Assembly (NCBI GenBank): GCA_024137785.1
Contig: JAHRHZ010000058.1
Span: 11,838,427-11,902,426 of the forward strand
Direction: 5' to 3'
From: Ginglymostoma cirratum
Taxonomy: Eukaryota
Length of the DNA stretch: 64,000 bases
The notes under the pieces were generated by a model, which had not been told where the DNA came from, did no database searches, and saw only the letters and a program-made list of their open reading frames with translations. Positions within the stretch are counted from its first letter, which is position 1, and every line of letters starts with the position of its first letter. The position numbers and the translations under genes are program-made. Below are positions 3,593-64,000 of the stretch, in pieces.

Positions 3593-6410
3593 CAAACATT
3601 TCAGGTTCAATTCCAAATCCCAACAGATCTATTTTCTTTCTCTCTGCATTTTTGTCATGTAACGTGATATATAGATGACTAATTGGGAGAAGGGGCTGTT
3701 GGATAATATTAAATGAACATGTTCAATCTAGAATGCAACATCAAAGAGAAAGTAGATCTGTATGGAACTGTACCTACCAGTTTTCCAATGCATTAAAAGA
3801 GAACACAAGGTTTCAATCCATGTTCCAATGCTACAACATGGTAACTATATTTAACTGTGGCCAAGTGCAATAAAGTGTTTGAACGCTGAACCAAAATATT
3901 GATTCTTTCTCCTACTCATCATTCATACCACAGAAGTGGTCATTCTGCTCTATTCATAAACTAGCAATTTTCTCTTGAAACCAGTTAGGTGAACATTCCC
4001 CCCACTCAGGCACCTCATTTGACCACAGTCACCGCCCAAAGGGCTACACACCCATCTCTAGAACGTATCGCATTACATCAGTCATTTCAAAAATCTTATC
4101 AAGTTTCAGCAAGTTTGTAACAGAAAAATCTTTTGTGATGTTGGGAAAGCTTTCACTATAAATTTTTAAAATGCAATAAAGATATCAATAGAAAATATTC
4201 AGTAATTGCAAGTTAGCTTCACCTAATTAAATGGTTACTGAGTTAACAGATGCACAGAGGCACTCATGAGCTCACTGTTAGCTGCTAACTGAACTTAGTT
4301 GTTCATTTTTATCAGCTGAATGGTGTACAGGATCCATTAAAAAGCACAATATTGTATGTTAAAGAAGATTGAACAAACCTCCATTAAATGCGTATCGTTG
4401 TTGATGATACTGCTGTGATGGCCATAAGCACTTTAGTGTAGTAGCAGGAGTCTTTGCTGAGATACTATGTTGTAAAGTAAGCACACTGGGGATGTTAAAT
4501 GGGTTTCAGAAACGCTCGAATTACAGTACAGTGAAGTAGAAAGCTTTTATATACTGGCTGTGTAGGTGAATCATAAAGGATTGGTTAAAGATGAGTTGTT
4601 TCCATGGGGTGGAGGGGGAGGGGAGTGGGGTTGTGTCACTGGGCTCTGTAACAATGAAAACCAAAAATAAACTTGATATTTAAAAACAGGAACAATATTA
4701 CTTTGCCCTTAATTTAAAGAAAACACACGCACTTTATGCTCTTTGCATTTTACGAAGCTAGATTAAAAGATTACCTGACATACAGGTGGAAATAAATGCA
4801 ACAGTAACTTTCAAAATGGATTTGGATTAATATCCAAAAAAAGAAATAAATTGCAGGGACATGGGTGGGAAAAAGAAAATCAGGGCAGTGGCACTAACTG
4901 CAGAGTTAGCCTAAATAGGGAAGATGGCACAAATGGCCTCCTTCTGTGCTCCAGAATTTTGTCGGTTCTATATTTGCTCCAGTTTCTGGGACAGCATGAG
5001 TGTCGTAAATACTGAATTTGTAAAATGAGTAGGTTATACCTTCAAACGCTGGCACGTTTTGATACTTTCAGTAGCCACTTTGCATGCAGAAGCAGCAAAG
5101 TGAAAATGCAAACTAGCAAAGATCAGAAACTAGTCCAACTTAGAAGATTTTGTTTTGGCTCTGAATTATTAACTAATATCAACTAATCTTTAATATTACA
5201 ATTTGCAATTTTAGCAGGGAATTCGTAACCATGTTGCAAATATTTATGACATAAAACTTTCCTTGTTCCGTATCTAACTCTACCAAAAAATACTAGTTCA
5301 ATAAGGTTCCTCTACACTTCAAGCATATTGTCATTGGTGAAGTTGCACGGGGAAGGAATGAGGGTTTAAATGTCAGAGGGAATGAATTAAGCGGAAGACT
5401 GCACAGCCTCATGGCTTTACAAGAGATAAATATGGTTTAATACTTGATTCTTAATCTTTGCTTCAAAATTTTGTTTGGTTTCTCTGCTGTACAATTTTTT
5501 TTTTAAAAGAAATTAATGGATTAAATTGATGACAGCTTTAAGCTAACTGTCAGCTTCCTTTCATCGTCCCTTGTATACTCCCATCCTGCAAGAATGTTTG
5601 GGTCATGATTATTTTAATTCAAGTATTAATGGTATCATACATTAAAACCTTTCAAAAATTACTGGACTGAAGGGTGGCTGAAATAAAAGCAGATCAAAAC
5701 ATTGTGAACTTAACCAACTTTAAACTGACTTGTTCAACACTAAGCAGATAGTGGAAAAAAGGTCTCCTTTTTTTTAAAGTGGTAGAAATTGCCCACTTGA
5801 CTCAAATATTCAGGGAATGGCACAGAAACACTTTAACAGAATAAAATGAGGTGTACTGACCAATTTTGCAAAGAAACATGAGTTCAAAGCAGAAAGAATT
5901 AGTTTCTGACTGAAGAGTAATTTCTGAAGTGGATTTACTGCCCATCATTAATTGCACTCTGGGCTTTCTCGCTCTCCAGCAGTCTGCTTCCTTTGATCTG
6001 AGAGATTAGACTAATTGCTGCTGTAAGATGTTGCAGAGCACGCTCAACACTGAACATCGAAATCTGTATTGAAATTAAACCTGTCAAACTGCATGATGAA
6101 ACTGGAACTCAAACTGAAGAGCGAGACAGCCGTTGAACCTTTTAATTGAGTATCATTGAAATGTTACGTGATACAAGTATCTGACTTTGTGTGAATCGGT
6201 ATTTTCTCTGGAATACAGTGCTTACATGAGATCAAAGGAAGACTATTGGGAGGAGCAAATCTAAATGATGAACACTTCATCCTGTTGATGGTTCCTAAAT
6301 GTTTATTTGTTCATCTTCTGGAAGTGAACTTAGAACAAAGAACAAAGAAAATTACAGCACAGGAACAGGCCCTTCGGCCCTCCAAGCCTGTGCCGATCCA
6401 GATCCTCTAT

Positions 6411-9200
6411 CTAAGCCTGTCGCCTATTTTTCAAGGATCTGTATCCCTCTACTCCCTGCCCATTCATGTATCTGTCTAGACACATCTTAAATGACACTAT
6501 CGTGCCCACTTCTACCACCTCCGCTGGCAATGCGTTCCAGGCACCCACCACCCTCTGCGTAAAGAGCTTTCCGCGCGTATCTCCCTTAAACTTTTCCCCT
6601 CTCACCTTGAAATCGTGACCCCTAGTAATTGTTGCTATCCACCCTGTCTATACCTCTCATGATTTTGTAGACCTCAATCAGGTCCCCCTTCAACCTCTGT
6701 CTTTCTAATGTAAATAATCCTAATCTACTCAACCTCTCTTCATAGCTAGCGCCCTTCATACCAGGCAACATCCTGGTGAACCTCCTCTGCACGCTCTCCA
6801 AAGCATCCACATCCTTTTGGTAATGTGGCGACCAGAACTGTACACAGTATTCCAAATGTGGTCGAACCAAAGTCCTATGCAACTGTAACATGACCTGCCA
6901 ACTCTTGTACTCAATACCCCGTCCGATGAATGAAAGCATGCCGTATGCCTTCTTGACCACTCTATCCACCTGTGTTGCCATGTTCAGGGTACAATGGACC
7001 TGAACACCCAGATCTCTCTGTGCATCAATTTTCCCCAGGGCTTTTCCATTTACCGTATAGTTCGCTCTTGAATTGGATCTTCCAAAATGCATCACCTCGC
7101 ATTTGCCTGGATTGAACTCCATCTGCCATGTCTCCACCCAACTCTCCAATCTATCTATATTCTGCTGCATTCTCCGACAGTCCCCTTCACTATCTGCTAC
7201 TCCACCAATCTTAGTGTCATCTGCAAACTTGCTAACCAGACCATCTATAACTTCCTCTAGATCATTTATGTATATCACAAACAACAGTGGTCCCAACACG
7301 GATCCTTGTGGAACACCATGGGTCACAGTTCTCCATTTTGAGAAACTCCCTTCCACTACAACTCTGTCTCCTGTTGCCCAGCCAGTTCTCTACCCATCTA
7401 GCTACTACACCCTGGACCCCATGCGATTTCACTTTCTCCGTCAGCCTACCATGGGAAACCTTATCAAACGCTTACTGAAGTCCATGTATATGACACCTAC
7501 AGCCCTTACCTCATCTATCAATTCTGTCACTTCCTCAGAGAATTCTGTCAAGTTGGTAAGGCATGACCTTCCCTGCACAAAACTATGCTGCCTATCACTA
7601 ATAAGCCCATTTTCTTCCAAATGTAAATTGATCCTATCCCTCAGTATCTTCTCCAGCAGCTTCCCCACCACTGACGTCAGGCTCACCTGTCTATAATTAC
7701 CTGGATTATCCTTGCTACCCTTCTTAAACAAGGGTAAAACATTAGCAATTCTCCAGTCCTCCGGGACCTCACCCATGCTCAAGGATGCTGCAAAGATATC
7801 TGTTAAGGCCCCAGCTATTTCCTCTGTCACTTCCCTCAATAACCTGGGATAGATCCCAACTGGACCTGGGGACTTGTCCACCCTAATGCCTTTTAGAATA
7901 CCCAACACTTCCCCCCTCCTTATGCCGACGTGACCTAGAGTAATCAAATATTTATCCCTAACCTCAACATCCGTCATGTCCCTCTCCTCGATGAATACCG
8001 ACGCAAAGTATTCATTAAGAATCTCACTCATTTTCTGACTCCTCGCATAACTTCCCTCCTTTGTCCTTGAGTGGGCCAACCCTTTCTCTAATTACCCTCT
8101 TGCTCCTTATGTATGAATAAAAGGCTTTGGGATTTTTCTTCACCCTGTTTGCTAAAGATATTTCATCACCCCTTTTAGCCCTCTTAATCCCTCGTTTCAG
8201 ATTGGTCCTACTTCCCCGATATTCTTCCAAAGCTTTGTCTGTTTTCCGTCACCTAGATCTTACGTATGCTTCCTTTTTCCTCTTTGCTAGTCTCACAATT
8301 TCACCTGTCATCCATGGTTCCCTAATCTTGCCCTTTCTATCCCTCATTTTCACAGGGACATGTCTGTCCTGCACTCTAATCAACCTCTCTTTAAAAGCCT
8401 CCCACATATCAAGTGTGGATTTACCCTCAAACAGCTGCTCCCAATCCACATTCCCCAGCTCCTGTCAAATTTTGCTATAGTTGGCCTTCCCCCAATTTAG
8501 CACTCTTCCTTTAGGACCACTCTCGTCTTTGTCCATCAGTATTCTAAAACTTATGGAATTGTGATGACCATTCCCAAAGGAATCCCTACTGAAACTTCAA
8601 TCACCTGGCCGAGCTCATTCCCCAACACTAGGTCCAGTATGGCCCCTTCCCGAGTTGGACTATTTACATAATGCTCCATAAAACCCTCCTGGATGCTCCT
8701 TAAAAATTCTGCTCCTTCTAAACCCCTAACACTAAGTGAATCCCAGTCAATGTTGGGAAAATTAAAATCTCCCATCACCACCCCCACCCTGTTGCTCCTA
8801 CATCTTTCCATAATCTGTTTACATATTTGTACTTCTATCTCACGCTCGCTGTTGGGAGGCCTGTAGTACAGCCCCAACATTGTTACCGCACCGTTCCTAT
8901 TTGAGCTCTGCCCATATTGCCTCACTGCTCGAGTCCTCCATAGTGCCCTCCTTCAGCACAGCTGTGATATCCTTTTTGACCAGTAATGCAACTCCTCCAC
9001 CCCTTTTACCTCCTTCTCTATCCCGCCTGAAGCATCTATATCCTGGGATATCTAGTTGCTAATCTTGCCCTTCCCTCAACCAAGTCTCAGTAATAGCAAT
9101 AACATCATACTTCCAGGTACTAATCCAAGCCCTAAGTTCATCTGCCTTACCTACTACACTTCTCGCAGTAAAACAAATGCACCTCCGACCATCTGTCCCT
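6411..9200 (-). pseudogene. CR1 ORF2 (APE endonuclease and reverse transcriptase), disrupted
   Basis: ORF pieces 9059-9337, 8551-8925, 8249-8449, 8024-8230, 7441-8079, 6622-7356 and 6411-6605 are collinear parts of one CR1 ORF2, broken by frameshifts and stops. Confidence 0.9.
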
Positions 9201-9344
9201 TTGCGTTCATCATCTGATCTCTGCCTACTCTTCCCCTTAGTCACACTGGCATCATTATCTAGTTCCTTACAGGCTTTACTTACTACCTCCTTACTGTCCA
9301 TTAACCACCTCATTTGGTTCCCATCCCCCTGCCACATTAGTTTA

Positions 9345-9695
9345 AACCCTCCCCAACAGCATTAGCAAAAGCACCCACTAGGACATTGGTTCCAGTCCTG
9401 CCCAGGTGTAGACCGTCTGATTTGTAATAGTCCCACCTTCCCCAGAACCGGTCGCAATGTCCCAAAAATCTGAACCCCTCCCTCCTGTGCCATCTCTCAA
9501 GCTACTCATTTATCCTGCCTATTCTTTCATTTCTACTCTGACTAGCATGTGGCACTGGTAGCAATCTTGAGATTGCTACTTCTGAGGTCCTACTTTTTAA
9601 ACATGGCTCCTAACTCCCTAAATTCTGCTTGTAAGACCTCATCCCGTTTATTACCTATATCATTGGTGCCTATATGCACCACAACAGCTGGCTGT
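9345..9695 (-). pseudogene. CR1 ORF1 C-terminal SGNH/GDSL esterase-like domain, disrupted
   Basis: My translation: QPAVVVHIGTNDIGNKRDEVLQAEFRELG.../SRTSEVAISRLLPVP...WGRWDYYKSDGLHLGRTGTNVL. It contains the GxND (block III) and DxxH (block V) SGNH motifs. Confidence 0.8.
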
Positions 9696-13000: not shown

Positions 13001-13130
13001 ACTGTTTGTCATGAAGGATCTCAGTGTTGAAGGTGGTGGATTGTCTGTCAATTAAACAGACTCTCTTTTTACAAAAACAAAGTTGCTGGAAAAGCCCAGC
13101 AGGTCTGGCAGCATCCGTGAAAGAAAAAAC

Positions 13131-13170
13131 AGAGTTAATGTTTCGGATCGGGTGACCCTTCCTCAGAACT
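13131..13170 (-). ncRNA. Minimal type I hammerhead ribozyme motif (slightly decayed)
   Basis: Minus strand: AGTT-CTGAGGA-A-GGGTC-ACCC-GATCC-GAAA-CATT-AACT. The CUGANGA and GAAA cores, stem II and stem I (AGTT/AACT) are present; ACGT in stem III has decayed to ACAT. Confidence 0.65.
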
Positions 13171-13175
13171 TCCTC

Positions 13176-13216
13176 AGTTCTGAGGAAGGGTCAGTGGACC
13201 CAAAATGTTAACTCTG
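13176..13216 (+). ncRNA. Minimal type I hammerhead motif, probably inactivated
   Basis: AGTT-CTGAGGA-A-GGGTC-AGTG-GACCC-AAAA-TGTT-AACT. Stem II is perfect, but GAAA has become AAAA and ACGT has become ATGT (CpG decay). Confidence 0.6.
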
Positions 13217-13734
13217 ATTTTTCCTTCACAGATGCTGCCAGACCTGCTGGGCTTTTCCAGCAACTTTGTTTCCTGATTTACAGCATCCACAGTTCTTTCT
13301 TTCATTTTTTATTTAGACTCTCTTTTTATCCTGGATGGTATCAAGCTTCTTGAGTACTGGCACTGTACTCATCTAGGCAAGTGGAAAGCATCCATCACAC
13401 TGCTGATTTGTGTCTTGTAGGTGGAGGACAGGCTTTGGAAGGTCAGTTACTCACCACAGTGTTCCTCTAGCTCTCGTAGCCACAGTATTTATACAGCTAG
13501 TCCAGATCAGTTTCTGGTCAATATTAAGCCAGGATGTTGATAGCCAGTGATACTGATACCATCGAATGAAAGGTTTTCCTTTTGCAGCCGTCCACCTTTG
13601 TGCTAGTGCCCAGCTCTGCTATCAGACATGATGGTTCTTCAAAGTGTTTGATTATGTCGCATTGACTTACATAACCTGCTTCAGGGCTGTAACTGCTATC
13701 AGCCTAAACTGTGTGCATCACAGAATTGATTCAG

Positions 13735-23824: not shown

Positions 23825-26548
23825 AAAAAAAAAATGCCAGTTTTTGGGGGAAAAAAAAAAAATCAGTGTCTGAACATTCTAGACTACAGATTTAGTTGCA
23901 GGAGACTCCACTCAAGAATTGCCTTGATCGGAGTAGATCAAGTTTGTTGTGGATTTGACCATTGCTCTTATTATCCAGTCTTATTGTAATCTTGTTTCTT
24001 GAAATCTTGAATGGTTCAAATTAATTAGTCCATTTTATCCTACATCTTATGTAATTCAGTTGATGGATTTTGTCTACAGGACAAAATTTTCACTATGAAG
24101 TCACCTTTCAAGATGTTAGCTTTCTTGTAACTATCGATGTGCATGGGTACTTTGAGTAATCCCACGCCATTTCAATTGATTATAATCAATGTTTGAACAA
24201 ACTGCAAATGTCAGCACTGCTAAAACAAAAAATGGACATAGTCACTGAACTAACATCTGCTGTTGTGTGTTTTACTGCACTTAACACCAGCATCACACTA
24301 CTTTCCATGCAGACTGGATTGGAAAATAAGCCATGTCTCAAAAACCAAATTTTTTGTGACTGTACATGACTCCGAAGATGAACTGATTGCCTTTCCCAAT
24401 GAACAATAAAGATGATGAAATGCAGTCGAAAACTCAAGTGCAGAAACAATCAATTCAGCTGTGACAGTTGGTATCACATTCACTGCAACTGAGAAGATTA
24501 GGGGCTGATGTAATCAGAGTGCTCAATACATCGAGTAGTGAAGGTTACTTCCGGGAGTTGGTGATTCAGCTTCAAAATTACTACTAGGCATTGGGAACAA
24601 TAACAGGAAGGATGAAATGATTTTGTTCACGTAAAAGATTTATTAGGATATAAAATGCCCCCTTCACAAGCCGTCATTGATACCATGGCAATCACAACAT
24701 CTTAGGCAGGAATCTGGTAAACGCTCGAGGAGGAATCTAATTTATTTCTGGGGAACAAGAAGAAAAATGAAATTAGGGTAATTAGCTCCTCTATGGAACT
24801 ATACTAACACCTTGAGCTGAAAGAGAACCATCTGTTCTTTAATTACAAATTTCTTTTGTAAAAGTATTGGTGAAATTGCAGGATCTTACATTAGCGAACA
24901 AGCATATTTCAGACTCCTTTGTCCAATATTTCAATTAAGATCGCTGTTAAATTAGGGAATGCATGACTCTCTGGGTTGACTTTTTAAAAGACAGTTTTTT
25001 TTTGTTTATAAGGACAGTTCCACTTGGGTCAATTTATTTTATGTTCCTCTAAAGTGTTTACCATTGAGAGACATAAAACATTGTTTCAGAAAACTTGGAA
25101 GGTGGAGTGAATCCACTTGGGCACTTTGCCGACAGGACTTGGATTCAAATTTATTCAAATTGAAGGACCAGAAGTCTACTCCCTTAGGCTCCTGTAAGAA
25201 ACAAGTATGGAGCACACTCCGTGAGCATAAGCCCATAACACAAAAACTGCTAATTCAGAACTAAGAGAGAGAATTGTCATTGAAATAGACTCGAAGGATG
25301 GTTGGAAATAGGACACAAAATGAGATATTTCTGCAGCAGGTATATACAGGGAACTGGCGCTGAGGGATTCTCTTGGTGCAGAGTAAAGTTTTATTAGCTG
25401 GAATGGAACTGGCTTGTCATTGATAATGGGTGCCTGAACCAGGATTCCCAGCTACAGGAGAGGGGCAGGGGGTGGAATTAAGTGAAACATTTGTTTCTAC
25501 AACTGTTTCCTATTCAGAAAGGCCGTAGAGCTTATTCAACAGTGCAGATAAGGTTACTGTACATACTGAGCAAGGCAGCAAATTTACCTGACATACTTTC
25601 ATAAAAATGACTAAAGAGTGGAATATAAAAGTATTTCTATGCAAATTGGTGTAGCTCAGAGAGATAATTGTCCTTTGTAATAGTCATTTGTACTATTGGA
25701 TGGGTAGCATGGAGTAAACAGACCATGGAAAGCAGTGAAGAATGACTTGTATTCCATTGTGTTGCTAACCACAACTCACCAGTAAAATATGCATTTTATT
25801 TCATAGCGAACTGATTGCCTTCAACTACCCAACTTCAGACATGAATCTGACAGCTTTCTGGAACTGTTCTTCTCTTGCCTTCCCTTTTATTTGAGCCTAT
25901 CACTCTGGAAAATATCATAAGAGTGAGCAGATCCTTTCAGAGTCCTGGCTAAATGGAATATTTAATAAGGGCCATATTTCAAGTTGGAGATCCAGTCCAA
26001 AGTTTGAACAGACACCAAAAAAGAATTATAAAGGTCAGAAAGGCCCCAGTGTAGCAGCCTAGCCTGAAAGTTGGCAAAACTCCTTACGCATGCATGTGGT
26101 TGGATTACTGCCATAAGCAGAAACCAAGCACCACACACATGAATCAGAAGCCTAACTACTGTGTTACTGGCACTTTGTAAAGGGATTGTCTCACTTTGTT
26201 GGGAGAATTGTTGTGTAGGCTCAACCTGAAACATTTAAAAATGGCTCATTCTCAAAATTACCTTCAAGCTGCTACAGTTGATCCTTTTGAAAACTAAATT
26301 ATTGACATATGCAAAGCACATCTTGAGGACAAGTATCGCTATTTGTTTAAGCACGTTGCCACAGATAAACATCTGCATGACTGCTGTGATATGTCTTCTA
26401 TTCAGTTAGATTGTCTTTTAGCTTGTTCAACCAATTATTTTAATAAATAATGGTTGGACATTCCCCCTACACGTTCGTACTTCAGTCCAACAAATTGACA
26501 TCACTATCCACGTTCACATTAGCCTCCACCGTATTTTCAGAGACTTTC

Positions 26549-26845
26549 TAGAATCCCTACAGTGTGGGAACAGTCCCTTCGGCCCAACAAGTTCACACCA
26601 ACCCTCAGAGCATCCCACCCAGACCCATCCCCCTATAACCCACCTAATCTACACATCCCTCAACACTCTGGGCAATTTATCATGGCCAATCCACCTAACC
26701 TGTACATCTTTGGACTGTGGGAGGAAACTGGAGCACCCAGCAGAAACCCACACAGACACAGGGAGAATGTGCAAATTCAACACAGACAGTTGCCCGAGGG
26801 TGGAATTGAACCCAGGCCTCTGGCACAGAGCCACCGTGCCACCCC
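26549..26845 (-). mobile_element. HE1-type V-SINE
   Basis: Reverse complement of the 23509-23824 family, with a short deletion in the head. Confidence 0.92.
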
Positions 26846-26884
26846 TTATTTATTCCCAAATATTAAATTTTTCCAATTTAAGAT

Positions 26885-26988
26885 CAAAAACAAAGTTGCT
26901 GGGAAAGCCCAGCAGGTCTGGCAGCATCTGTGAAGGAAAATCTGTGTCGGTTTTTGTTCCCGTTTTATAGCATCCGCAGTCCTTTCGG
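26885..26988. mobile_element. Short deletion derivative of the same Penelope-type element as 13072-13314
   Basis: Starts caaaaacaaagttgctgggaaagcccagcaggtctggcagcatc, like the 13072 left arm, and ends ...agcatccgcagtcctttcgg, like its right end. Exact 15-bp TSD tttccaatttaagat at 26870-26884 and 26989-27003. Confidence 0.85.
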
Positions 26989-27818
26989 TTTCCAATTTAA
27001 GATGATTTCTTTTCTGTGCACATAGACACACCATCCCAATCATTTGTAATGCTTGCTCCCACATCATAAACAGTCACAATTTAAGGCTATGCCTGTCATA
27101 GCACTTGGCGCAGTTTGATTTTTTTCCCCCAACTTCTTTGTGATCTTCATTTGGATTAGTTTGATATCTTGCTTGAGTTTGTTCTTGTTCAGTACAGTAA
27201 ACTTCCACAAACATTACCTTTATTTTCTTTTTAAGTTGGACAGACTATGGCTTGACCTTTTGTGCACCTCATTTCAGCCCTCTTCCAATTTTCCTCAGGT
27301 ACTTTAAGAAATGGGAGAGGGCCTGGGATGAGTTCTGTCAGGAGAATACAGGCATGGCTGAAGAACAAGGAGTCGTGTATTTTGCATGTAGGTGTTAGGA
27401 AAGCCACTTGTAATATCGATACAAATCAACTTCTAGGGATCTGATGACATTCTACAGGGAGGGAACATTTGTAGATCGTTAACCAATTTGATCCTATTTC
27501 CTCAAAAACTGATAGAAAAGCAATCCCAGAGACATGAGCAATGGCCTGAATAAAAAGAGGGGCAACTCGGGTGGAATTGCTCATTACATGAGACATTATG
27601 AAGTAAGTTCCCACACAAAATTGTTGTAACTGGATACAAGAGGTGACTAGATCCATATTTCTGGAACAGAAAAGGCATAGGAGGGTTTGATGCCAGAGCA
27701 GGTACATGAAGGGTTATAATTTTATTGAAAAAAAAACTGTTTCTTGGCTTATAGATAGCTTTTCCTGCTCCAGAGAGTTTCCGGAAGCTTGCGTCAGGAC
27801 AGAAGTGCTCTGATTCAC

Positions 27819-32973: not shown

Positions 32974-33258
32974 ATAGAATCCCTACTGCGTGGAAACAGG
33001 CCCTTCAGCCCAACAAGTCCACACCATCCATCTTGGAGCATCCCACACAGACCCATTCCCCTATAACCCACCTAATCTACACATCCCTGAACACTATGGG
33101 CAATTTAGCACGGCCAATCCACCTAGCCTGCACACCTTTGGATTGTGGAAGGAAACCCACAGGGAGAATGTGCAAACTCCACACAGGTCGCCAGAGGGTG
33201 GAATCAAACCCGAATCCCTGGCATGGTAAGGCTGCAGTGCTAACCACTGAGCCGCCAT
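32974..33258 (-). mobile_element. HE1-type V-SINE
   Basis: agaatccctac...ggaaacaggcccttcagcccaacaagtccacacc...gcagtgctaaccactgagccgcc. Confidence 0.92.
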
Positions 33259-34799
33259 GGTCATTAAAAACTCAAAAGTGCACTGAGAGCGCTAAGACAG
33301 GCCTCCAGTCTGTCATGATAGTTTGGGAGGCCAGCAGGAGTGCATACGTTTGCGGTCTGTAGGTTCTCATGACAAGCTTTCAAATCACATGCAACTGGCA
33401 GACTGAATGCCTGCCCCACGTGTTGATAAAAGGTGTCAGTCCCCCTCCACTGAACCAGTGACACTCCATCTCTCAAACCTCCAATCCAGGAGTTATTTTG
33501 TTTTCCTCAGAAATGTGACCCATTTTTCAAATGCTCATGTCATTATCCTTGCTTGGAGCCTTTGAAGCTGAATGTTCCCTCTTACACAAGTATGCTCCCT
33601 ACAGTTGTAGCTGTTTCCTTCTGAATCAGGTAAATGGGAGCTCCCAACCTGCAGACAGCCTGCTCTTTGCTCTCTTTGATGTCAATGATTTGTAAGGGGA
33701 CAGACAGAGGAATACCCAGACACAGCCAAAAACTAGAATAAGGAAGTCCCTATCTTGATCTAGTCAGTCCAGAAAGTCTCCCACAGGAGTTACAATGCTG
33801 TTTGTAGTTGAAGTGAAATGGAAAGCAAGAAGTTAAGAATAATTTAATCTATAGTTTGTCATTACGTCAACATCATCCAATTTATACAAAAATGTGACAC
33901 ACACTAATAGACAGCCACAGAGGACATGTTCCATAAATTCCCTAAAATACGTAGGATAGGTAAAAGAGGTGTTAAAATGTAGTCTACCAGAGATGGATAA
34001 CCTGAAATATCCTGGAGGATTCATCACGTAATAACACAATTCAATTAAATCTATTGAACTAGTTATGAGCCAACACTAGAAGCAAAACAAGTTACCACCC
34101 TAAATTTGCTGAGAATCAAGCTCATTTAACAAAGAAATAACAGTGCAGGGAAAAGTTTGTTCTACTAAATTAGCTCCAAGTACAAAGATGTCCTAAATTG
34201 TTGATTCAGTCCTCGAAGCAAAATGGCAACCAAAGAGGTTCCAAATGGACAAGTCTACATAGCAACATGATTAAAGGGAGACTCAACATTCACCAGGAAA
34301 ATTCTAGCAAGCATTATGAGGAGTTTTGATTTCTCTCAAGTGCTTTCACTCTCGAAAGTAGTTGTGGCTTTGAAGGAAATCACTATTTGGTACAGGGTCT
34401 TGGAGGGAAATAAGTTTAATGAGTTCAATGCAAAAAAAAAAAAAAAAAAAAAAAAATGAAATTTTGAATTCAGATGTGACCAGCAACACACACTGCAGAA
34501 AGACAACACCAAAGCTTAAATTCTCCTGCGGCATAGGGGAGAATTAAAAATGGATGAAGATCGCTGCTTGGACAGTTGAAATGAAATATAACCATTGTTA
34601 GTGATTTAACGGTTTTACAGAGGCCACAGGACTGCAAGTTGCCATTCCTACAATGGAAATTATATTGTGCATGTGCGTCATCTCAAAACCCTGCTAGAGA
34701 CACAAAGTCTGTCAGAACAATTCCCAAACCCAGCTCTCAAAAATCTTTAAAGCTTTTAGATTTCAGTGACTGCAGATATTTAAAAAAAAAAAAACAACT

Positions 34800-35014: not shown

Positions 35015-35316
35015 CAGCACAGTGGCTCAGTAGTTAGCATTTTACTGCCTCACAGCACCAGGGGCCCAGGTTCAATTCCAGCCTCAGGTGACTGTCTATG
35101 TGGAGTTTGCACACTCTCCTTGTGTTTGTGTGGGTTTCTTCCCACAGTCCAAAGATGGGTAGGCTAGGTGGATAGGCTACGCTAAATTGCACCAGAGTGT
35201 TCAGGGATGTGTAGATTGAATGGATTATTAGGGGATGGGTCTGGGTGGGATGCTCTGATGGTCGGTGTGGACTTGTTGGGCTGAAGGGCCTGTTTCCACA
35301 CTGGAGGGATTCTATG
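35015..35316 (+). mobile_element. HE1-type V-SINE
   Basis: cagcacagtggctcagtagttagc...ggttcaattccagcc...cccacagtccaaagatg...gggcctgtttccacactggagggattctatg. Confidence 0.92.
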
Positions 35317-35727
35317 AAAAACCCTGAAATTCATTATTATGACCACAGATCATAAACCTAGATCACTAAAAAGGACATGCTAAACTTTAAATTCTGACAT
35401 GTTTTTTTAAAATAGAAAGGTGCTGACACAGATATAGCCAAAATGACTGTGAATGAACATCCAGGGGCTGTAAGGAGAGGAATACTGGAATGACATACTT
35501 ATGGGAGTTAGAAGTAGCTTTGAAAAGGAGAAATTGTATTAGAAATGGAAGTATAACCTCCTGGGAGTTCTCAAGGACTGCGAGAACGATGGAAAACAAA
35601 CAGCAATTGGAGTGAGAATGTTTTGAGAATACACAAGAACAGGACATAAAACCCATTTGAACAGTGGTGCGTGCATGCATGCTTGCTAGCGGGAGATGCT
35701 CATGAACTGAGGTTACTCATATGTGCT

Positions 35728-35869
35728 GAGATAAAAGGTACTGCAGATGCTGGAGAATCTGAGATAACAAGCATCAGAAAATTCTGATGAAGGGTTTAGG
35801 CCCGAAACGTCAAGTTTTCCTGCTCCTGTGATGCTGCTTGACCTGCTGTGTTCATCCAGCCCCACGCTT
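35728..35869 (+). mobile_element. Short Penelope-like terminal-repeat insertion carrying a hammerhead ribozyme
   Basis: 16-bp TSD gttactc(a/g)tatgtgct at 35712-35727 and 35870-35885 (one CpG-type mismatch). The body gatgctgcttgacctgctgtgttcatccagc is related to the 13-kb element's gatgctgccagacctgctgggcttttccagc. Confidence 0.8.
35779..35817 (+). ncRNA. Minimal type I hammerhead ribozyme with intact catalytic core
   Basis: aaatt-CTGATGA(35784-90)-A-GGGT-ttag-GCCC-GAAA(35804-07)-C-GTC(35809-11)-aagtt. All core nucleotides are present, with a GUC cleavage triplet and the palindromic ACGT stem III typical of PLE-associated minimal hammerheads. Confidence 0.8.
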
Positions 35870-37708
35870 GTTACTCGTATGTGCTAATGCTGGTACCAGT
35901 GCGTGGTGAAGGTTATAGTCAACAAGTTCGACATTAATCACTCCTGCACTGCAGGCATTCCATGCTAGAAACTAGTTAGCCAGTTAAAAAGATAACAGGA
36001 CAAGATCTTCTTTAGAGCTTGACATCCTTTCATAAGCAGGAGAAGGAGAGTTGTTAGGCCTTTGGAACATTGCAGACTCCAGACATTCCCTTTTATTGGT
36101 GAGCACCGGGGCATTCATTACATTTGTTCATCAGCAACCCAAGATTATGGAGCTATCACAGCTTTAGCAGAGGAACTGTTCAGAAGTCACCATCTGGGCT
36201 CCCTCCTCCAGCTTTCATAGAAAGCTATTTTTACCAGCTATCGCAGCTCAGATGTACAACTGTACATGCCCGGGAGCATTCTTCCAACAAGGCTCAAGTA
36301 CAGATCACCTTATCTCCTTCCTTGCAACCTGCAGTCATCACTTTGTACAGCAGTAAAGATACCGCAAGAAATGGGTCAGGGAAAAGGGGCTGTACAAAAG
36401 GAGGAGGAGGAAGAATGGAACAGCTGGAACAAGAGTAAAGAAGAAGGTCGAAAGGATGTGTGTAAGTGTCAACTCGAACATATTCATTCCCAAGGCTTTG
36501 TATTTTGATACCACTGCAACGCAGATAACAGGCAAACACACGTGAAAAAGATGGATACTGTCAAAAGGAGAGGAGAGAAATACTTCTAAAGAGGTGGCAG
36601 TGACATATCCACATGAAAAGAAAAAGAGAGGAGACGTACAGTCATCCTACTTTGGTGGGGGGGGGCCCCCCCAGGGAGTGAGAGACATTTTTTCAATATG
36701 CAGTCAACAAGAGACAGATACTGATATAAATAATGGGTAGGGTTTGATCTGGAGGTAACATGACAGATTCGGGGCAGAGGAGGAGTGGGTAAACGAGCAG
36801 AAGGAAAATTGTTTTCCCCAACAGCGTGGACCTAGCAAACTATGCTGTGGGGGAAATTCACAAGCATTATTGCTGAAAGCTGCTTTGGGTTCTTTTTACA
36901 ATTCCTTGAATATCTTCAAGGGAAATGTGAAATAGCTTGCCTGCAATTGAAATCAGATTTCTGCAGTGCTGCACAATTGGCTTAAAGCAAGAAATAAAAA
37001 GTTTCCATTCCACCAAGATACCTTGGATATTTTATATGTTGAAGACAGCTGAGGAGCATGAAAAGATGATGAGAGGGTTGCTGCTGCACAGTCAGACTGT
37101 AATGAGAGACTGGAGAATATGCTGAGGTTTTATTGTGACTGGAAAACATCTGCAAGTCTGTAATTTAAGTACCATTATTAGGACAGCAAAGTAGAAGGAC
37201 ACAAGAGTAGTGGTATGACAGAGCTTGCAGTCTCCACTTAGATGCCTGATCAAATTGGTGCCTGTGATTTTACAGTAAATTAAATAGATATTGTTGTCAC
37301 AGACTCTGCTGTTCTGTCACTGAATAATTATGTCTGTCTAGAGAATGAAGAGTTATTTTAAGTGAAGCTCATCACATGCCCTCATTTTCTTTGCTTCTCT
37401 TCACATTGTAAATTATTTCTCTTGCGACATTTCCTTGATTAGTTTAGATCATATTGACCAAACTAAGATTACAAATTAGGCGCAAATCATTCCCCCCCCC
37501 CACTCCACCCCAAATTTTAGATCAGCAATGCACAGCTTTATCAGCTTCAGCTCTTTTTAGATATTAACATACATATGCAGGTGAAAACAAAATCATACCA
37601 TTTACCAAGTTTTCCCTGTTTAAAATGAAAACCAATTGATAAAATTTATTAGGTTTGTTAAAGTATTGTTGCCATACTTCTCCTTAGGTTATTCCCTCAT
37701 TTAACGCT

Positions 37709-46292: not shown

Positions 46293-46420
46293 CTGCATTC
46301 TCAGAATGGAAGGTCATGTCAGTGCAGAGCGAGAGCAAGACAAGAAAAAGCTACCAAAAGAAAACCAGAATTCTAGTTTGATAGCACAAGAGACCACTCA
46401 CTCCAAGCAAGCCAAAAAAA
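46293..46420 (-). CDS. Candidate alternative first exon, ATG at 46317, encoding MTFHSENA + G (phase 1)
   Basis: Perfect donor CAG|GTAAGT (plus acttac 46287-46292); pyrimidine-rich UTR-like leader; ATG in gacATG context. The 5' boundary is uncertain. Confidence 0.4.
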
Positions 46421-49005: not shown

Positions 49006-49094
49006 CTTGATATGGGGCTGACAACGATGTCCTTAGTCACACTGCTCTTATGCAAGACTTAATTGCTGACCCAAAAATCAGAGATGCGAGTGGC
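49006..49094 (-). other. Candidate 89-nt internal non-coding (5'-UTR) exon
   Basis: Branch point ttCTGAC, tract ttctgcctgtttgtcctcCAG|G and perfect donor AAG|GTAAGT. Stops in all three frames and no ATG. Confidence 0.6.
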
Positions 49095-51494
49095 CTGGAG
49101 GACAAACAGGCAGAACTGCACGTCAGAACACTGCTGTAATTTTGACACTGAAGATTTTGTCCCATAAATATTGCAAGCTGGCATTTTGGAATCAACGCTT
49201 ACTTTAAGCCAAGCAAAGTCACACTGTCAAGCTAGTAAATCAGTAAAAGGCACAAAACACAATATTCCAAAAACTGAAGTGTGACAGTTAATTTTGCAAG
49301 TGGGAATCAAAGTATTTAAGGAAAACAGATCTGAACAAAATAGCTTAAGTGGCTTCAATTTAGTTCTCAGCAGACATTGTTCAAAATGTTGGGTGGGTGG
49401 GTGGGTAGGTAGTGTGCTCCTCCCCCCCCCCAGCTTCCTTTGGGACTTTGCTGGCAACAGTGCACTCATACTCATGGAAAAAAATTCCGTCTATTTGCTT
49501 TTGTCTCACTGTTAGCTCTCAGGCATGTCTTGACAAGAACTCAGTATTGCCGAGACGGTGGAGGAGGGGACAGGCAGTCATTTGTCAGTCTCTCAACCCT
49601 GAAATTTCTGTCAACTCAGCATCATTTGAGGGGCGAGGAAAGGGGAATTGATGATGTCACCCTTGAATCATCATTTCCAGAAACTTGCAATCTGTTTAGA
49701 TAGTGGGAGTAATAATGAGGTTACTGATCCAGAAATGTTATCTTCCACATAATTTAATTAAGACAGCCAGCACTGAAAACATCTGAAAAAAAAACTTGGA
49801 GTCAGCCAGCTTTCTGCAGGAAAGTAGAGGGGGAAAAAAAAAAAGGAAGAGTGGGAATAAATCTCATGAGCCAATTGAATTGTGACTATAGCTTGCAGAC
49901 ATACAAATCCTCCAACCTGCTGGCCTAACCTTGATCCTGCACTCCACTCAAAGTTAATAAAACAGCTTGTAATTTCTTTACTGTGAGAAAGGGAGGCAAC
50001 ACGCTAACACTACCAAGACGCCTGGAGAGGAGTGATCACAATTGTGATCACTCATTTTTGCTACATCTCCAAATTAGAACAGCCAAACAGTTTAAAAAAA
50101 CCAACATGACAAAGAAAATGAAGTTCATTTTTAATATCCTGAGCTTAAAAAAAAAGGGGGGAGACCCTTGGAGTCACAGTACAGCGAGTGGCAAAACCAT
50201 TAACTCCAAATATTTAGTGACTGATGGGAGTGAAACATCTGAATTGCCCAAGTTTATCTTCTTAAAATTAAGAAAAAGGTCTGTAGCCATCACACAACTC
50301 AATCTTCAGTTTTAGAAAAAAAAGGAACTTTAAACCGGATTAGCAAGAGTCAGTTGAAAGTTTACTTGCATGCGTAATACAAATACATGAATAACAGGCT
50401 AATGGCCAGTGCCCTTAGAGCTTCTTGGTTATTCTGCTATTTTACAAAGCTAACATAACCTTTCCCAAAAAGGATCTGTCAGCTTCTCTCAGACCCTTAG
50501 CTTTACCCACGTAAGGAAAGCTCATTCATGGAATCAGAGATAATGAAGGGTCATGGTGCACTTTAGCCTGGTGCTGGAAGACACCATTTTTTTTTCCCCC
50601 AATGTGCAAGTGATCCAATTAGGCATGGCTTTCAAGAGATCCAGATAACTAGCAGAATGGTGGCACTAAAATAGTTTGTAAAGGATACCTCATGACAGCA
50701 CAAGCTATGAAAAGTGACTTTTCTGGATGTCACATGATCAGCTAGACTTTACAAAACAAAAATTTAAGCTCAACATAAGTTTGAGATCCCAGAGATCAAA
50801 TTCCAATGGGAGGGCCTTCGTGCACAGGCCCAGCTCAATTGTAGAAATTAAAATGTTAAAAGGAATTATTTGATGGAACATCTTCAGTGTAAATTGATAT
50901 TACATTTTGGAATTCCATGAATTCAGTGGTTTTTCATATTCCAATCTTTGATTTGGGAAGTGACTTGTTTTGGTGGCTGTCTTCCTTAATGATTTCCGAC
51001 CTCCAACCCCAAACCCCCACCACTGGCACAATGTACAGCTACTTATGATGGAAACAGGCTTGTGGTTAACAAATGGTGTTGTGGGTTTCATTGTATCATT
51101 GCACATCTTGTGAGATACTAAAGGTCATGTTTGATGACCAGTTAACAGCCTTCTGTACAAAACATGCAAAGCCCCGCTCAGCCGCCGGCCACTCACGTCC
51201 GTTCTGTATGTGACGTACACACACTCACGGGAGGTGGAAAAGAAAATAAAAAAGTAGCTTCAAACATTTGCAAAAAAATCAAACAGTATGTAACCAGAGG
51301 GAGTAGCAGTGCTTGGGATGACTTGTATTGTTATCTGTTGACTTTGCCTATGGCTCAAAATGGTGCAGCTGGCCATGGAGGGAAAAACTGGGAGCTGTAT
51401 TTTACTGGTTTCACTGGTGTAAAACAGAAGTACTTTCAGCAATGGTCAATACGCTGACCAGTTTATTGAAAGGGAATTATTGATTACCCACAAA

Positions 51495-58568: not shown

Positions 58569-60234
58569 AGCTTTGGTTCTGGTGGGGCGGGATGACAGCA
58601 CCTTGAACTCATGCACGAACCTCAGTTCTCAAAAACGGAGATAATTCTTTTGTTTAAAAACAGGAGCCTGAAAGTGAGTTTTCACAATCTAGAATGAAGT
58701 TATAACGGCCAGTGTAACCTTTCTTAGGCGCAGGGGAGAAAAAAAAAAGAAACGAGTTAGATTCGCCTTTGTGGTCCAGCTTATTGTCAAAACCCCATGT
58801 TTGATTACGGGTCATTGCGACACTTGGTGCAGACTGAAGTACTGTTATAGCAGTATGGTACACTCCGTCTGGCTCACTTGTTTGCGCTGTACAGCTGTAA
58901 GCCTCAACACAGCTCTCGAACCGACAGCGGGTGTGTGAACCACCTCCCACCTTACATCATCTCCAAGCAGCTTGGTCTGTGCAGAGGCTGCAAATGAAGT
59001 GGCTGCACCTGGAGCAGGGAGGAGCGTGTTAAGGGCACAGGCTGACCCTGGTTAGGGCACTGACTACACAGACTTTGCACTGTATGAAAAGGTCCAGACA
59101 ACCCCTGCGGATTCCATCATGCGACACTCGCCTTTCTTCTTTTCCAGACGTGGTAATCCAAAGAATATACTTAAGATCACCAGCAGCGTAATTATCCACC
59201 AGCTTCTCAGTCTCTTCTCCCTACCCCATCCCCTCTGTTCAGAATTCTCCCAATGCTGAACATTAATAGGCAGTGTTTTTTTTTTAAAAAAAAGCAAAGA
59301 TTAGATTTCAGAGAGACCCCTTGTTATGACTACCTCCTAATTCCATCAAACTGATCTAAATCCGCATTATTAGGAGCTGGAGTCTGGAGAGATTGCAGAT
59401 GCCTTTTAGTGCTTTGGTAGAAAGACAGCTTTTTTTGAAAAAAAACCCCACAGATTTTCAAATAGCTCCTCTTCCGATATGGCGATGATTGTATTTTGGC
59501 AACAAACAAATTTAAAGCCGACTTGTTTGCCTGAGTTATTTAGATTTTTGTTTAATTTCTAAACTGACAGGAGTAAACAGGTAGTGTCTTCTGCAGGCAC
59601 ATCTAACTGCTGGGGGGGGGGGGGGGGGGAGAAAGAAGGGGCAGGTCAGTCACTATTCTCCTGGTGGTATTTCCCTTGTTCTAATCCGTAATAGATGAAG
59701 CCTCTCCGCCCCCCAAAAGTAAACACGGCCTTACTGCCAGTAAGTTACTGGTCTGACTGGCACTGAAATCCAGGTAGAAGGAAGGTGCGAGGGCGAGGTC
59801 GGGGAACAACACTTGTACGGTTATCCAGGCCCCCCCCCCAAAAAAAAGTCCACAAATCGGACCAGCACCTTGTCCTTTCAAGGCCAAAAATTGTCTGTGT
59901 GCGCTTAAATCACAGCTGTAGCACGATTCAGTTGGTCACCACAGAAAGTAGTAGTTAAATTCTTTCCCTCTGGTGGAAATCATTTGCTTTCAAAGATCCA
60001 GACTGACCAGTGAAGGGGGTATTTTGTCTAGAGATGACGGTATGGAATGCCTGGTAAATTAGCCAGGCATCAGCAATTCTTTAAAAAAACCTATTTGGTG
60101 TCAGCCATGCGCTACTCCAGCCAGCTTTTAAGGAAAAAATGCAAATCGTTGATTATAAATCATCCGGTGTACGGTGGGAATCAGCTTGGAGGTAATACTT
60201 TTAAAAACACCAGAATTATTCTCGTATAGACAGC

Positions 60235-60380: not shown

Positions 60381-62143
60381 CATTTGTATCTGGCGCAGTC
60401 CCTCCATTTGCAAGCTCTCACTTTCAACCGCTTCTTCCATTCTCTCCCCTATCCTCCCTCCCTAAAGGAAAACACTACCGAGTGAATCAAGGGGGTGACA
60501 AAGTTTTAATGGGGACGTCTGCACGTCCATAACTAACAGCTCATTACAGAGAGGATTTTAATCGCAGCAATACTGAAACAAGTGAATGGAAATGTCTGGA
60601 ACACATCAATTAATTCAATCTGTTTGCTCCCCAGCAGCAGCCCCGGAGCTTTCATATAAATGAGTTGTCAAACGGAACGGCCTTGAAATAAAGCATGTCA
60701 GGATTGCAAAAATATTTAGTTTTTTTTATCCCCCCCCCCCCGACCCCGTTCCCCCCTCTCCAGTGACTATTCCAAGAGGAGACAAAGACCAGCTTGATCC
60801 CTGTAAATGTTACAATGCTCCCACTGATTGCCACATGAGCCTTTCCTCTGCATATGGTCAATTAGTATTGAAAATACTCAGCTGATTCCATTTTCTGGAA
60901 ATTTTAAGCACGGCCTTATGTGCAGGAAGAATGATGTTATTGAAAGGAAGAATCTCATCTAAATAAAAAAGGGCACATGGCCATCTGGTCTGGTCAAACT
61001 CTGTACAAAGTTTATGGTAGTACTTATAACGGGAGGGCTTGCCGTGGTTGTGGTGAACGTGCAGATCTCAGATTGACATCAATCGGTGTGTGTTTTAAAC
61101 AGGAACTCGGGAGGAAATAAATGCTCGCTCTAGTTAACTCTCTGCAACGAACAGAAGCCCACAGTCGCCGATCTCGGTGCAGTAGGAATAGACTCGTCAT
61201 ACATTGCGTGCGTCCAGGCTCCTCGATTGTAGGGAGAGAGATCTGGCTGCTGGCCAGACAGGCGAGAGCTCTGTTGATCGTTATGTCTAGCCTTCAGGTG
61301 TCTTAGCTCTCAGTGGGTGGGGGCGGGAAGAGAGAAGAGGAGGAGCTACAGATGACATGATGGCAGACAAAGAAAAAAGGGGAGAGAACGGGGGGGGGGA
61401 GAATAATTTGGCTTAAAATGAAATAACGATCATATTTCCCTAAGTTATTATTATTTTTGATTTAGTTTTAGCTGAGCTCTAAGGTGGATTTAAGAATGTC
61501 TATTTAAAAATTCAGATCGCTGCAGGATTTGAGCTCAGTACTGAAAGACAGGACAGGACAGGAAAGATTAATATAAACCAAAAAGAAAAATCCTCCTCTT
61601 TGCCCTTTGTTTGAATTTCAAAAGCTCCTCAGCTGTGTCCCTGAAAGCTCCAGTCCTTTCAGTAACTCATTGTAAGCCAAACTCTGGGAGCTGGTTGGAC
61701 AGGGCTGTACCCCTTCGTGGCAGGGTCAGTCGAGTTTGTTCTACTTAGTGCTGGCGGTGGAACTGATTGGACACGGAGAATGTGTTATCACATGCAGCCC
61801 ACTTCATCTCATCCCGCACCCTGAATAATGCAGTGGGCTGGTTTTTTGTGTTTTTTTAAAAAAACCGTCTGTGCTGCAGTCAGACAGACAGTTCCCTCAG
61901 GCAGCCGACGTTCTCCCCTGCACCAGCACCTCCTCCCACCCCTCCCTCTCAGGAGAAGGGATCTAAGGTTACCCTGCGGTACGTGAGCGGTTTTCAAAAC
62001 TTCCTTAAAAAAAAACCAAAAGCGGTCGTCTGACATTGTTAAGCCTTGTCACTTAACAAGAGTCACACACAAATGACAGATCTTTTGGAGCTGTGTAGTG
62101 AAGCGATCTCAGAAGCCAAGTGTATCTAAAAAAAAATACTTAC

Positions 62144-63050: not shown

Positions 63051-64000
63051 TCAGCCTCATCAGCGGCGCGTTGTTTCCTTGTTGGGAAATTGGAACATGC
63101 GGCCGAACAGGTGTCAGTCCAACAGAAAGTCCTGTTCTACTTTCCGGCAAAAGTGTGAGCACCCAGCCAGGGACCAGAATCCAGGTTCTCTTTCCACAAG
63201 TGCTGCCTGACTTGTTGAGCTGTTCCAGCAATTTCTCTTCTTGATCCTAGTGGACAGTTTGACTTGTTTCAACCATGCCCCTGGCAAGTCCTGGTGTCTC
63301 CCAGCTAACACAAGCCAAAACAGCGGTCGTAAACTTGGAAAGACGGCGGGGGGGGGACTGCGTTTCCATTCCGCCTTTCACAACCTCCCGATGTTCTAAG
63401 TCACATCACCATTCATTGAAGTGGGGCCACTATTTTGACATGAAGGACACGGGAGTCCATTTTGTGCCAACAAGATCCCACAATGAGTTAAATGGCCTGG
63501 TTGTGTTGGTTCAAAGATGAATATTGGACCAGACACTGCGGAGAAAGCCCATTGCTATTTGAGCTGGCAGAGAAGTAGGACAGGAGTTCGGTTCAACATC
63601 GGGGAGGCTCTAGATGTTCTTGTGGGGCTGTGGAATTACAAGCTCAGAGGTAATGGTGTTATCCCCGTGATCGAAGGATTACAATTACAGTCATTATAGT
63701 CCCACGTTGTTCCTTCAGTGACTGAACAATGGGAAGATCCTCTTCACACTATTCTGAAATAACATAAACAGAACTCCCCCATAAAAATATTACACTATCA
63801 TAAGTTGTGAATCCAATCGGATTCTTTATTGCAAAGATCTGCTTGTTTGGTGTGGCTGCCGAAATTAACTTGAAACATTTCCTTTTTATATGTGGCTGCA
63901 GTTATTTTTAAGAAAATGTGTAACGTTAACGTTATCAGGTTTACCTCTCTGCAATTTGTGCTGCACTTTTAAGGTGGCTGGTGATTGTGGGGATGAAGCA

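What the first reader, a model, noticed from the sequence alone, without database searches (positions are those of the whole stretch)
35712..35885. Intact minimal hammerhead ribozyme in a 142-bp TSD-flanked element, with a built-in antisense clamp
Seen: a complete core CUGAUGA-A-GGGU(uuag)GCCC-GAAA-C-GUC, with predicted cleavage after C35811, and a 16-bp TSD. Immediately upstream, catcagaa (35772-79) is the reverse complement of ttctgatg (35782-89), a remnant of an inverted arm that would pair with the catalytic core. Established: minimal hammerheads with a palindromic stem III occur in Penelope-like elements and retrozymes and can cleave as dimers. Inference: sharks host at least two subfamilies (CUGAUGA here, CUGAGGA at 13 kb) of short non-autonomous ribozyme retroelements. 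This copy is antisense to the inferred host gene, so it would not cut that pre-mRNA.
Basis: partly seen in the sequence, partly recalled or inferred. Interest (0 to 1): 0.75.

Follow-up and report, generated by a model that had tools for sequence, protein, structure and literature searches.

The report
Half-deleted Penelope stub with hammerhead motif
This 142-base insertion does carry a complete minimal hammerhead core between two copies of its target site, but it is most likely an ordinary broken stump of a known jumping gene (Penelope-like), and the 'clamp' is likely just what remained after most of its mirror-image half was lost.

Summary
Observation confirmed. The hammerhead core (35784-35811) passes a strict minimal descriptor (0 of 300 shuffles). 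The 16-bp target duplication (15/16) is real: a contig from a related organism holds the empty site.

Interpretation only partly supported. The family is high-copy and normally a long head-to-head palindrome with a one-sided ~37-bp tail, the published layout of Penelope-like element (PLE) insertions. Here the tail-bearing arm lacks 77 nt; the 8-nt 'clamp' is its leftover and is rare among copies. 'Intact' overstates the case: helix I has 2 in-register pairs, and the core stays mispaired without the clamp (8.9-10.7 versus 11.1-12.0 kcal/mol). Both arms start just before the core, not at the cut site, so the copied RNA was likely uncleaved. It is not a retrozyme (no tandem units). Host-gene orientation is not established, and no PLE coding sequence was linked here. 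The scan has noted this kind of stub many times on other DNA, including this genome. New member of a known kind; low interest.

The parts
35712..35727 (.). Left copy of the 16-bp target-site duplication
   Evidence: a single target copy at the orthologous site of organism B (X8 record 25; X6 record 17)
35728..35764 (-). One-sided ~37-bp tail, the 3' end of the tail-bearing arm; it sets the polarity of that arm to the minus strand
   Evidence: Its reverse complement aligns with the tails of the 13-kb and 26.9-kb copies (mean column identity 67%); it is absent from the right arm
35765..35772 (-). Outer remnant of the tail-bearing arm, the mirror image of the right arm's end (35866-35873)
   Evidence: I5, 8 of 8, joint 35771 to 35865 on opposite strands in all 4 runs
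35772..35779 (-). Inner remnant of the tail-bearing arm (the 'clamp'); 77 nt of the arm, including almost all of its own hammerhead, are missing in front of it
   Evidence: loose ends behind 35771 and 35774 continue as the reverse complement of the right arm
35780..35781 (.). 2-nt seam between the two head-to-head arms
   Evidence: sequence
35782..35869 (+). Tailless arm. It begins 2 nt before the hammerhead core; its end may extend 4 nt into the right target copy
35784..35811 (+). Minimal type I hammerhead core with stem II; no helix III loop (dimer type); predicted cut after 35811
   Evidence: features as listed in PMC4209133
35777..35819 (+). Possible helix I: 35777-83 with 35812-19, 7 pairs only if G35814 is bulged; 5 of its 7 5'-strand bases come from the seam and the clamp remnant
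35870..35885 (.). Right copy of the target-site duplication; its first 4 nt also match the family sequence (junction microhomology)
   Evidence: (loose ends behind 35860 and 35865)

Best explanation
A 142-bp insertion with a minimal hammerhead core and a 16-bp target duplication, likely a short stub pasted in by an autonomous Penelope-like retrotransposon as two head-to-head copies of its terminal repeat, of which one likely lost 77 nt afterwards. Inferred steps: (1) The element's GIY-YIG endonuclease made a staggered cut 16 nt apart. (2) Its RT copied the terminal-repeat RNA twice, once from the tail end (minus-strand arm) and once from an internal start about 37 nt further in (plus-strand arm). 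(3) Both copies ran through the uncut hammerhead, stopped 2 nt in front of it and were joined across a 2-nt seam. (4) The palindrome later lost most of the tail-bearing arm, by a repair deletion or an RT skip, leaving 8 nt that still pair with the core. The ribozyme motif is a passenger that served the parent element. This copy is predicted to be inactive as a lone RNA, with or without the 8-mer. Shown: core, TSD, empty site in a relative, mirror-arm remnants, tail homology, high copy number. Inferred: the enzyme, double priming, timing of the loss, inactivity.
For: Empty site: one organism-B contig matches 35317-35678 and 35870-36495 with 12 letters between. A second run's contig matches up to 35727 with 21 gaps, which leaves the same 12 letters plus one target copy. 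High copy: 3111, 10057, 5587 and 7314 contigs were laid in the 4 runs, with depth concentrated on the element. Full mirror arm in the family: loose ends behind 35771 read as the reverse complement of the right arm in 4 of 4 runs (43, 63, 194 and 165 records), and the joint 35771 to 35865 changes strand in 4 of 4 runs. Same layout in the window: 13058-13328 is a full palindrome (arms 87% alike over 197 nt) with tail and 14-bp TSD, and 26870-27003 is an internally shortened one with tail and 15-bp TSD. Literature: inverted 5'-truncated copy plus a 30-40 bp tail at one end (PMC8557442, PMC3846280; passages); minimal hammerheads in PLE terminal repeats, opposite-strand pairs 100-700 bp apart, no monomer cleavage and low dimer cleavage (PMC4209133, parts 1-2); tail = distance between two RT start sites, both strands extended, uncleaved RNA the main template (PMC11167929, parts 1-2). 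In 2 of 2 window copies with a preserved centre, both arms start 2-3 nt before C3 and not at the cut site. Folding: the hammerhead-like fold costs 11.1-12.0 kcal/mol with the 8-mer and 8.9-10.7 without it; the double hammerhead lies 26-32 kcal/mol above the best dimer fold in all 4 constructs.
Against: No RT or GIY-YIG coding sequence was linked to this terminal repeat here: there is no ORF in the insert, no whole genome is held, and collection scans found none. The PLE label therefore rests on layout and motif. The TSDs (14-16 bp) are longer than the 8-10 bp reported for Adineta Penelope. The right junction shows 4 nt of microhomology, whereas the anole enzyme primed without homology in vitro. 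Short-armed forms recur: 3 of the 32 listed piece rows cross the seam, with 3-7 gaps, two of them in organism B, so the short arm may arise at insertion rather than by later deletion. The empty site rests on one bridging contig plus one partial contig from another species. Nearest-neighbour folding ignores tertiary contacts and proteins, and the anole hammerhead cleaved only with protein.
Confidence: 0.8

Rival explanations
1. A dedicated non-autonomous mini-retroelement of fixed 142-bp structure (SINE- or retrozyme-like) that is transcribed, processed by its hammerhead and mobilised as a unit, with the 8-mer as an evolved clamp.
For: Clean TSD on both sides; complete core; a few other contigs cross the seam (3 of 32 listed rows); non-autonomous PLE derivatives exist (PMC8557442 passage; bioRxiv 10.64898/2026.07.22.740005, part 1 and passages).
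Against: Summed depth at the seam (35775) is 144, 4791, 3268 and 1626, against 274553, 1809332, 84065 and 26507 at 35813 (the tool warns that depth is no copy number). The three seam-crossing pieces carry gaps, and many different arm-to-arm joints are listed. There is a single hammerhead and no head-to-tail repeat. The arms include the uncut core, which a cleaved template would lack.
Confidence: 0.08
2. Same PLE origin, but the tail-bearing arm was short from the start: the RT skipped or stopped after about 44 nt and was joined through a short templated piece copied from the other arm's start, so no later deletion is needed.
For: Varied arm-to-arm joints in other copies (table 5); the 13-kb seam holds 7 nt that repeat neighbouring arm sequence; only 1 nt of microhomology at the single-deletion breakpoints when this copy's right arm is used as proxy.
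Against: The remnant ends at exactly the base where the other arm begins, as both arms do in the complete 13-kb palindrome. Long palindromes are deletion-prone (established knowledge, recalled), and microhomology deletions disable Adineta Penelope copies (PMC3846280 passage).
Confidence: 0.25
3. A MITE-like DNA transposon with terminal inverted repeats, in which the hammerhead likeness is incidental.
For: Palindromic shape and high copy number.
Against: The arms are asymmetric, with a one-sided tail; TSDs differ in length and sequence (14, 15, 16 bp); the strict hammerhead descriptor is met; the same core occurs in three unrelated metagenome contigs without an inverted arm at the core (L001-L003).
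Confidence: 0.02
4. Whatever its origin, this copy has become a working cis-regulatory ribozyme in a host transcript, switched by the 8-mer against a helix I rebuilt from the seam.
For: A 7-pair bulged helix I is possible, and it is mutually exclusive with the clamp; the core has no substitution.
Against: Without the clamp the core still mispairs with 35808-12. A partner copy is needed for helix III, and no second core in the window passes the descriptor. Fifteen unchanged core bases are expected with probability 0.40-0.46 at 5-6% divergence. The insertion is absent from a relative about 5% diverged.
Confidence: 0.03

Closest known systems
Insertion units of endonuclease-bearing Penelope-like elements: inverted 5'-truncated pLTR plus one-sided 30-40 bp tail (PMC8557442 and PMC3846280, passages read)
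   Same: Head-to-head arms, a tail on one arm only (~37 bp), a TSD around the whole unit, internal deletions in dead copies
   Different: No ORF between the arms (both are terminal-repeat stubs of about 90-130 nt); TSD 14-16 bp rather than 8-10 bp; one arm almost wholly lost; clade not determined here
[quoted passage not shown]
   Same: Core boxes, extra base between 9 and 10.1, G10.1-C11.1, palindromic 15.2/16.2 with no loop 3; found as solo or opposite-strand motifs
   Different: Helix I here has 2 in-register pairs against the 4-5 described for Schistosoma families; stem II has 4 pairs; sharks are not named in the parts read
Poseidon of Anolis carolinensis, PAc (PMC11167929, parts 1-2 of 4 read)
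   Same: Hammerhead upstream of two RT start sites whose spacing gives the tail; both target strands extended; uncleaved RNA as template
   Different: The PAc start sites lie 111-118 nt into the ORF; here the arm ends lie about 58-62 and 95-99 nt past the predicted cut. 4-nt junction microhomology here, none needed in vitro
Non-LTR retrozymes of animals (PMC7229834, passages; bioRxiv 10.64898/2026.07.22.740005, part 1 of 5 and passages)
   Same: Type I hammerhead, non-coding, TSD longer than 4 bp, PLE ancestry; reported in the one chondrichthyan sampled
   Different: Retrozymes are head-to-tail tandem repeats with two or more hammerheads and give circular RNA; this is a single head-to-head stub with one minimal core

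Membership tests
Minimal type I hammerhead of PLEs | Conserved core C3-A9 and G12-A15.1, U16.1, H17 | tested here: met
Minimal type I hammerhead of PLEs | Extra nucleotide between 9 and 10.1; G10.1-C11.1; palindromic 15.2/16.2 | tested here: met
   A35791; G35792-C35803; C35808/G35809
Minimal type I hammerhead of PLEs | Helix I of about 4-5 bp closing the core | tested here: inconclusive
   2 pairs in register, then A.G; 7 pairs only with a bulge and mostly from seam bases. A 2-bp helix I is described for the D. virilis variant
Minimal type I hammerhead of PLEs | Self-cleavage as a dimer or with protein help | not testable with these tools
   Folding predicts against it but ignores tertiary and protein effects
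Endonuclease-bearing PLE insertion | Inverted, 5'-truncated terminal repeat joined head to head | tested here: met
Endonuclease-bearing PLE insertion | 30-40 bp tail on one arm only | tested here: met
   35728-35764, homologous to the 13-kb and 26.9-kb tails
Endonuclease-bearing PLE insertion | Target-site duplication confirmed by an empty site | tested here: met
   X8 record 25 (one bridging contig, another species) and X6 record 17
Endonuclease-bearing PLE insertion | Terminal repeat belongs to an element encoding a PLE RT and a GIY-YIG endonuclease | tested here: inconclusive
   No genome held; Pfam on 94 window ORFs found only a LINE-type RT/APE at 6.6-9.0 kb; collection scans gave no linked ORF
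Non-LTR retrozyme | Head-to-tail tandem units with two or more complete hammerheads | tested here: not met
   One core in the window by the strict descriptor; no tandem unit between the TSDs
Non-LTR retrozyme | Small linear and circular RNAs | not testable with these tools
   Only contig runs were offered
Fixed-structure non-autonomous family (SINE-like) | Many copies share the same internal seam | tested here: not met
   Seam depth 16- to 1900-fold below core depth; crossing pieces gapped; varied joints (tables are cut, so this is not exhaustive)
MITE | Symmetric terminal inverted repeats and a fixed short TSD | tested here: not met
   One-sided tail; TSDs of 14, 15 and 16 bp

The most novel reading that the evidence does not exclude
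Losing most of the mirror arm turns a fully masked PLE stub into a half-freed ribozyme whose helix I is rebuilt from seam bases and competes with an 8-nt clamp. If such half-deleted stubs lie in host transcripts and cleave with protein help or by pairing with another copy's RNA, shark genomes would hold a large pool of accidental, switchable RNA cut sites made by palindrome decay.
Probability: 0.04. Interest if true: 0.6.

Novelty: new member of a known kind. Interest (0 to 1): 0.14.

Why it matters
As a single locus it matters little: minimal hammerheads occur by the thousand in vertebrate PLE remnants (PMC4209133), and this scan has noted such stubs many times. Its modest use is as a clean, datable record of PLE insertion. 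It has an empty site in a relative, a 16-nt staggered cut, two arms that differ by a 37-nt tail, and arms that begin in front of the uncut ribozyme, all of which fits the in vitro picture of two RT start sites and an uncleaved template. If the copy did cleave a host RNA, it would show palindrome decay creating new cut sites, but the evidence leans against that.

Tried and rejected
Rfam: 0 matches at gathering score over the window and 0 at E up to 10 over 35650-35950; the minimal motif is not picked up by these models. No whole genome is held, so there is no genome-wide copy census and no test of core versus flank conservation. In one search the listed variants inside the element were at 35813, 35815 and 35828, but 20 rows were cut, so this is not a conservation test. 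Collection scans: metagenome contigs gave 3 loci with the core only; viral contigs gave 0; prokaryote genomes gave 3 matches of 19-20 nt with no further likeness, taken as chance. Expression: no RNA holder listed. Run X1 (RNA is only a guess, and it may be the window's source) covers both flanks at depth 59-126 and enters the element by 25-26 nt, under the tool's 31-letter bridging rule; strand unknown; not used as evidence. Host gene: Pfam on 28 and 66 ORFs, PDB searches of two candidate exons and two rough splice-site scans (10 strong donors on minus, 5 on plus) identified no gene. No splice map from RNA runs was obtained, so orientation stays open. The idea that junction microhomology is general was dropped: it is 4 nt here, but by eye about 1 nt at 13 kb and none at 26.9 kb (sequence). 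The fact that 18 of 32 listed pieces begin at 35781-84 was not counted as proof of a fixed family start, because the query's own arm begins there. Literature searches for a shark-specific description returned 1, 2 and 1 papers. In the passages read none described these stubs; two were seen only as listings, most subscription journals and Repbase are not searched, and supplements were not read.

Full report
Observation. The sequence at 35712-35885 is as described. The two target copies match at 15 of 16 bases with 142 bp between them. Such a pair turned up at 8 of 9072 sampled positions of the window, the real site not excluded. The hammerhead core runs from C3 (35784) to C17 (35811), with an extra A after A9, a 4-pair stem II starting G-C, and C15.2/G16.2 with no loop. 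A strict descriptor finds it once in the window and in 0 of 300 shuffles; Rfam does not detect it. 35772-79 is the exact reverse complement of 35782-89.

The TSD is real. Laying four public runs on 35300-36500 gave one organism-B contig that matches 35317-35678 and 35870-36495 with 12 letters between. A contig from a second organism-B study matches up to 35727 with 21 gaps, which leaves the same 12 letters plus one target copy. The flanks differ by about 5% (19 of 362 and 31 of 609 letters). The insertion is therefore likely younger than the split between the two organisms. This rests on one bridging contig.

What the family looks like. Between 3111 and 10057 contigs per run were laid, with depth concentrated on the element. 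Behind 35771, the loose ends in 4 of 4 runs continue as the reverse complement of the right arm, and the joint 35771 to 35865 changes strand in 4 of 4 runs. The usual form is thus a long head-to-head palindrome. The window holds a complete relative at 13058-13328 (arms 87% alike over 197 nt, 14-bp TSD, extra 3' piece on one arm), an internally shortened one at 26870-27003 (15-bp TSD) and a decayed piece near 63.2 kb. The reverse complement of 35728-35771 aligns with the extra pieces of those copies. So 35728-35764 is a one-sided ~37-bp tail, the tail-bearing arm points along the minus strand, and the surviving hammerhead sits in the tailless mirror arm. Set against the reverse complement of the right arm (92 nt), the left arm keeps 8 nt at the outer end and 7-8 nt at the inner end and lacks 77 nt.

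The clamp. Summed depth at 35775 is 144, 4791, 3268 and 1626, against 274553, 1809332, 84065 and 26507 at 35813 (depth is no copy number). Three of the 32 listed piece rows cross the seam, each with 3-7 gaps, and the joint table lists many other arm-to-arm junctions; 26549 pieces and 13 joints were not shown. Short-armed forms thus recur, including in organism B, but this exact seam was not seen shared. In a complete copy the whole motif is locked in a hairpin of about 100 pairs (13-kb copy, -154.7 kcal/mol), so this copy is less masked than the norm, not more.

Would it cut? Helix I has 2 in-register pairs and then an A.G mismatch. Seven pairs are possible with one bulge, and five of those 5' bases come from the seam and the clamp remnant. 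The 8-mer is predicted to pair with the core (0.95-0.99 for most pairs). Without it, the core pairs instead with 35808-12. The open-core fold costs 11.1-12.0 kcal/mol with the clamp and 8.9-10.7 without it, and the double hammerhead lies 26-32 kcal/mol above the best dimer fold in 4 of 4 constructs. These figures ignore tertiary and protein effects. Published minimal hammerheads showed no monomer cleavage and low dimer cleavage (PMC4209133, parts 1-2 of 4), and the anole one cleaved only with protein (PMC11167929, parts 1-2 of 4). An unchanged 15-base core is expected by chance with probability 0.40-0.46 at 5-6% divergence, so no selection is needed. Both 13-kb cores are damaged at likely CpG positions.

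Mechanism (inferred). An inverted truncated copy plus a 30-40 bp tail at one end is the published layout of endonuclease-bearing PLE insertions (PMC8557442 and PMC3846280, passages; a 34-37 bp repeat in PMC2377424, passages). In vitro, the anole enzyme extends both target strands, starts at two RNA sites whose spacing equals the tail, and uses uncleaved RNA. In both window copies with a preserved centre, both arms start 2-3 nt before C3; a ribozyme-cut template would start at 35812. The simplest account is two cDNAs primed from a 16-nt staggered cut and joined head to head, with later loss of most of one arm. A short arm made at insertion is a live alternative. The double-priming and front-edge readings were taken from earlier scan notes and checked here only on these two copies.

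Results against my reading. No PLE ORF was linked. The TSDs are longer than the 8-10 bp in Adineta. The right junction has 4 nt of microhomology, which was not needed in vitro. Short-armed copies recur in other contigs.

Not established. The host gene and its strand: Pfam on 94 ORFs, two PDB searches and two rough splice scans found none, and no splice map from RNA runs was obtained. Penelope LINEs are listed for the whale shark genome (PMC8455134, one passage).

Membership and novelty. It works like, and is laid out like, a PLE terminal-repeat stub; membership lacks only the ORF link. It fails the tandem test for non-LTR retrozymes (PMC7229834, passages; bioRxiv 10.64898/2026.07.22.740005, part 1 of 5 and passages; its supplements are closed and might list chondrichthyan families). 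Three searches for a shark-specific description showed none in what I read. The scan itself lists 18 findings holding all of my search words in at least 9 genomes and 106 of 160 notes in this genome fitting 'Penelope hammerhead'; these are unchecked AI notes, not independent support. Verdict: new member of a known kind, interest 0.14.

Noticed in passing
window 13058-13328: Complete palindromic relative with a 14-bp TSD, a tail on the plus arm and a 7-nt seam that repeats neighbouring arm sequence; both hammerhead cores damaged in reciprocal CpG fashion; cleavage triplet ends in U rather than C.
   Followed up: yes
window 26870-27003: A member of the 13-kb subfamily with a perfect 15-bp TSD, a tailless arm, a tail, and both hammerheads lost from the middle: a second case of internal loss.
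   Followed up: partly
window 63097-63246: Decayed piece related to the 13-kb subfamily (nhmmer E 3e-7); no clear TSD or core.
   Followed up: partly
window 35679-35711: Organism B has about 21 fewer letters just left of the target site. In the window this stretch holds a 10-nt, 90% inverted match to 35765-74 (I3), which may be chance.
   Followed up: no
window 6400-9500, minus strand: Broken LINE-type retrotransposon: RVT_1 in two frames and an APE-type endonuclease fragment.
   Followed up: no
window 26545-26845, 32980-33260, 35016-35316: Several copies of a ~300-bp SINE-like repeat, by eye; likeness to known shark SINEs is recalled, not tested.
   Followed up: no
window 46293-46350, 49006-49097, 58951-59008 (minus); 61001-61500: Candidate minus-strand exons with plausible splice sites (the 49-kb one has stops in all three frames by hand translation) and a CpG-rich patch at 61 kb; no protein match found.
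   Followed up: partly
L001, L002, L003 at 601-628: Three metagenome contigs carry the same minimal core followed by a shared downstream motif, with no inverted arm at the core; probably host-animal DNA from another PLE family.
   Followed up: partly
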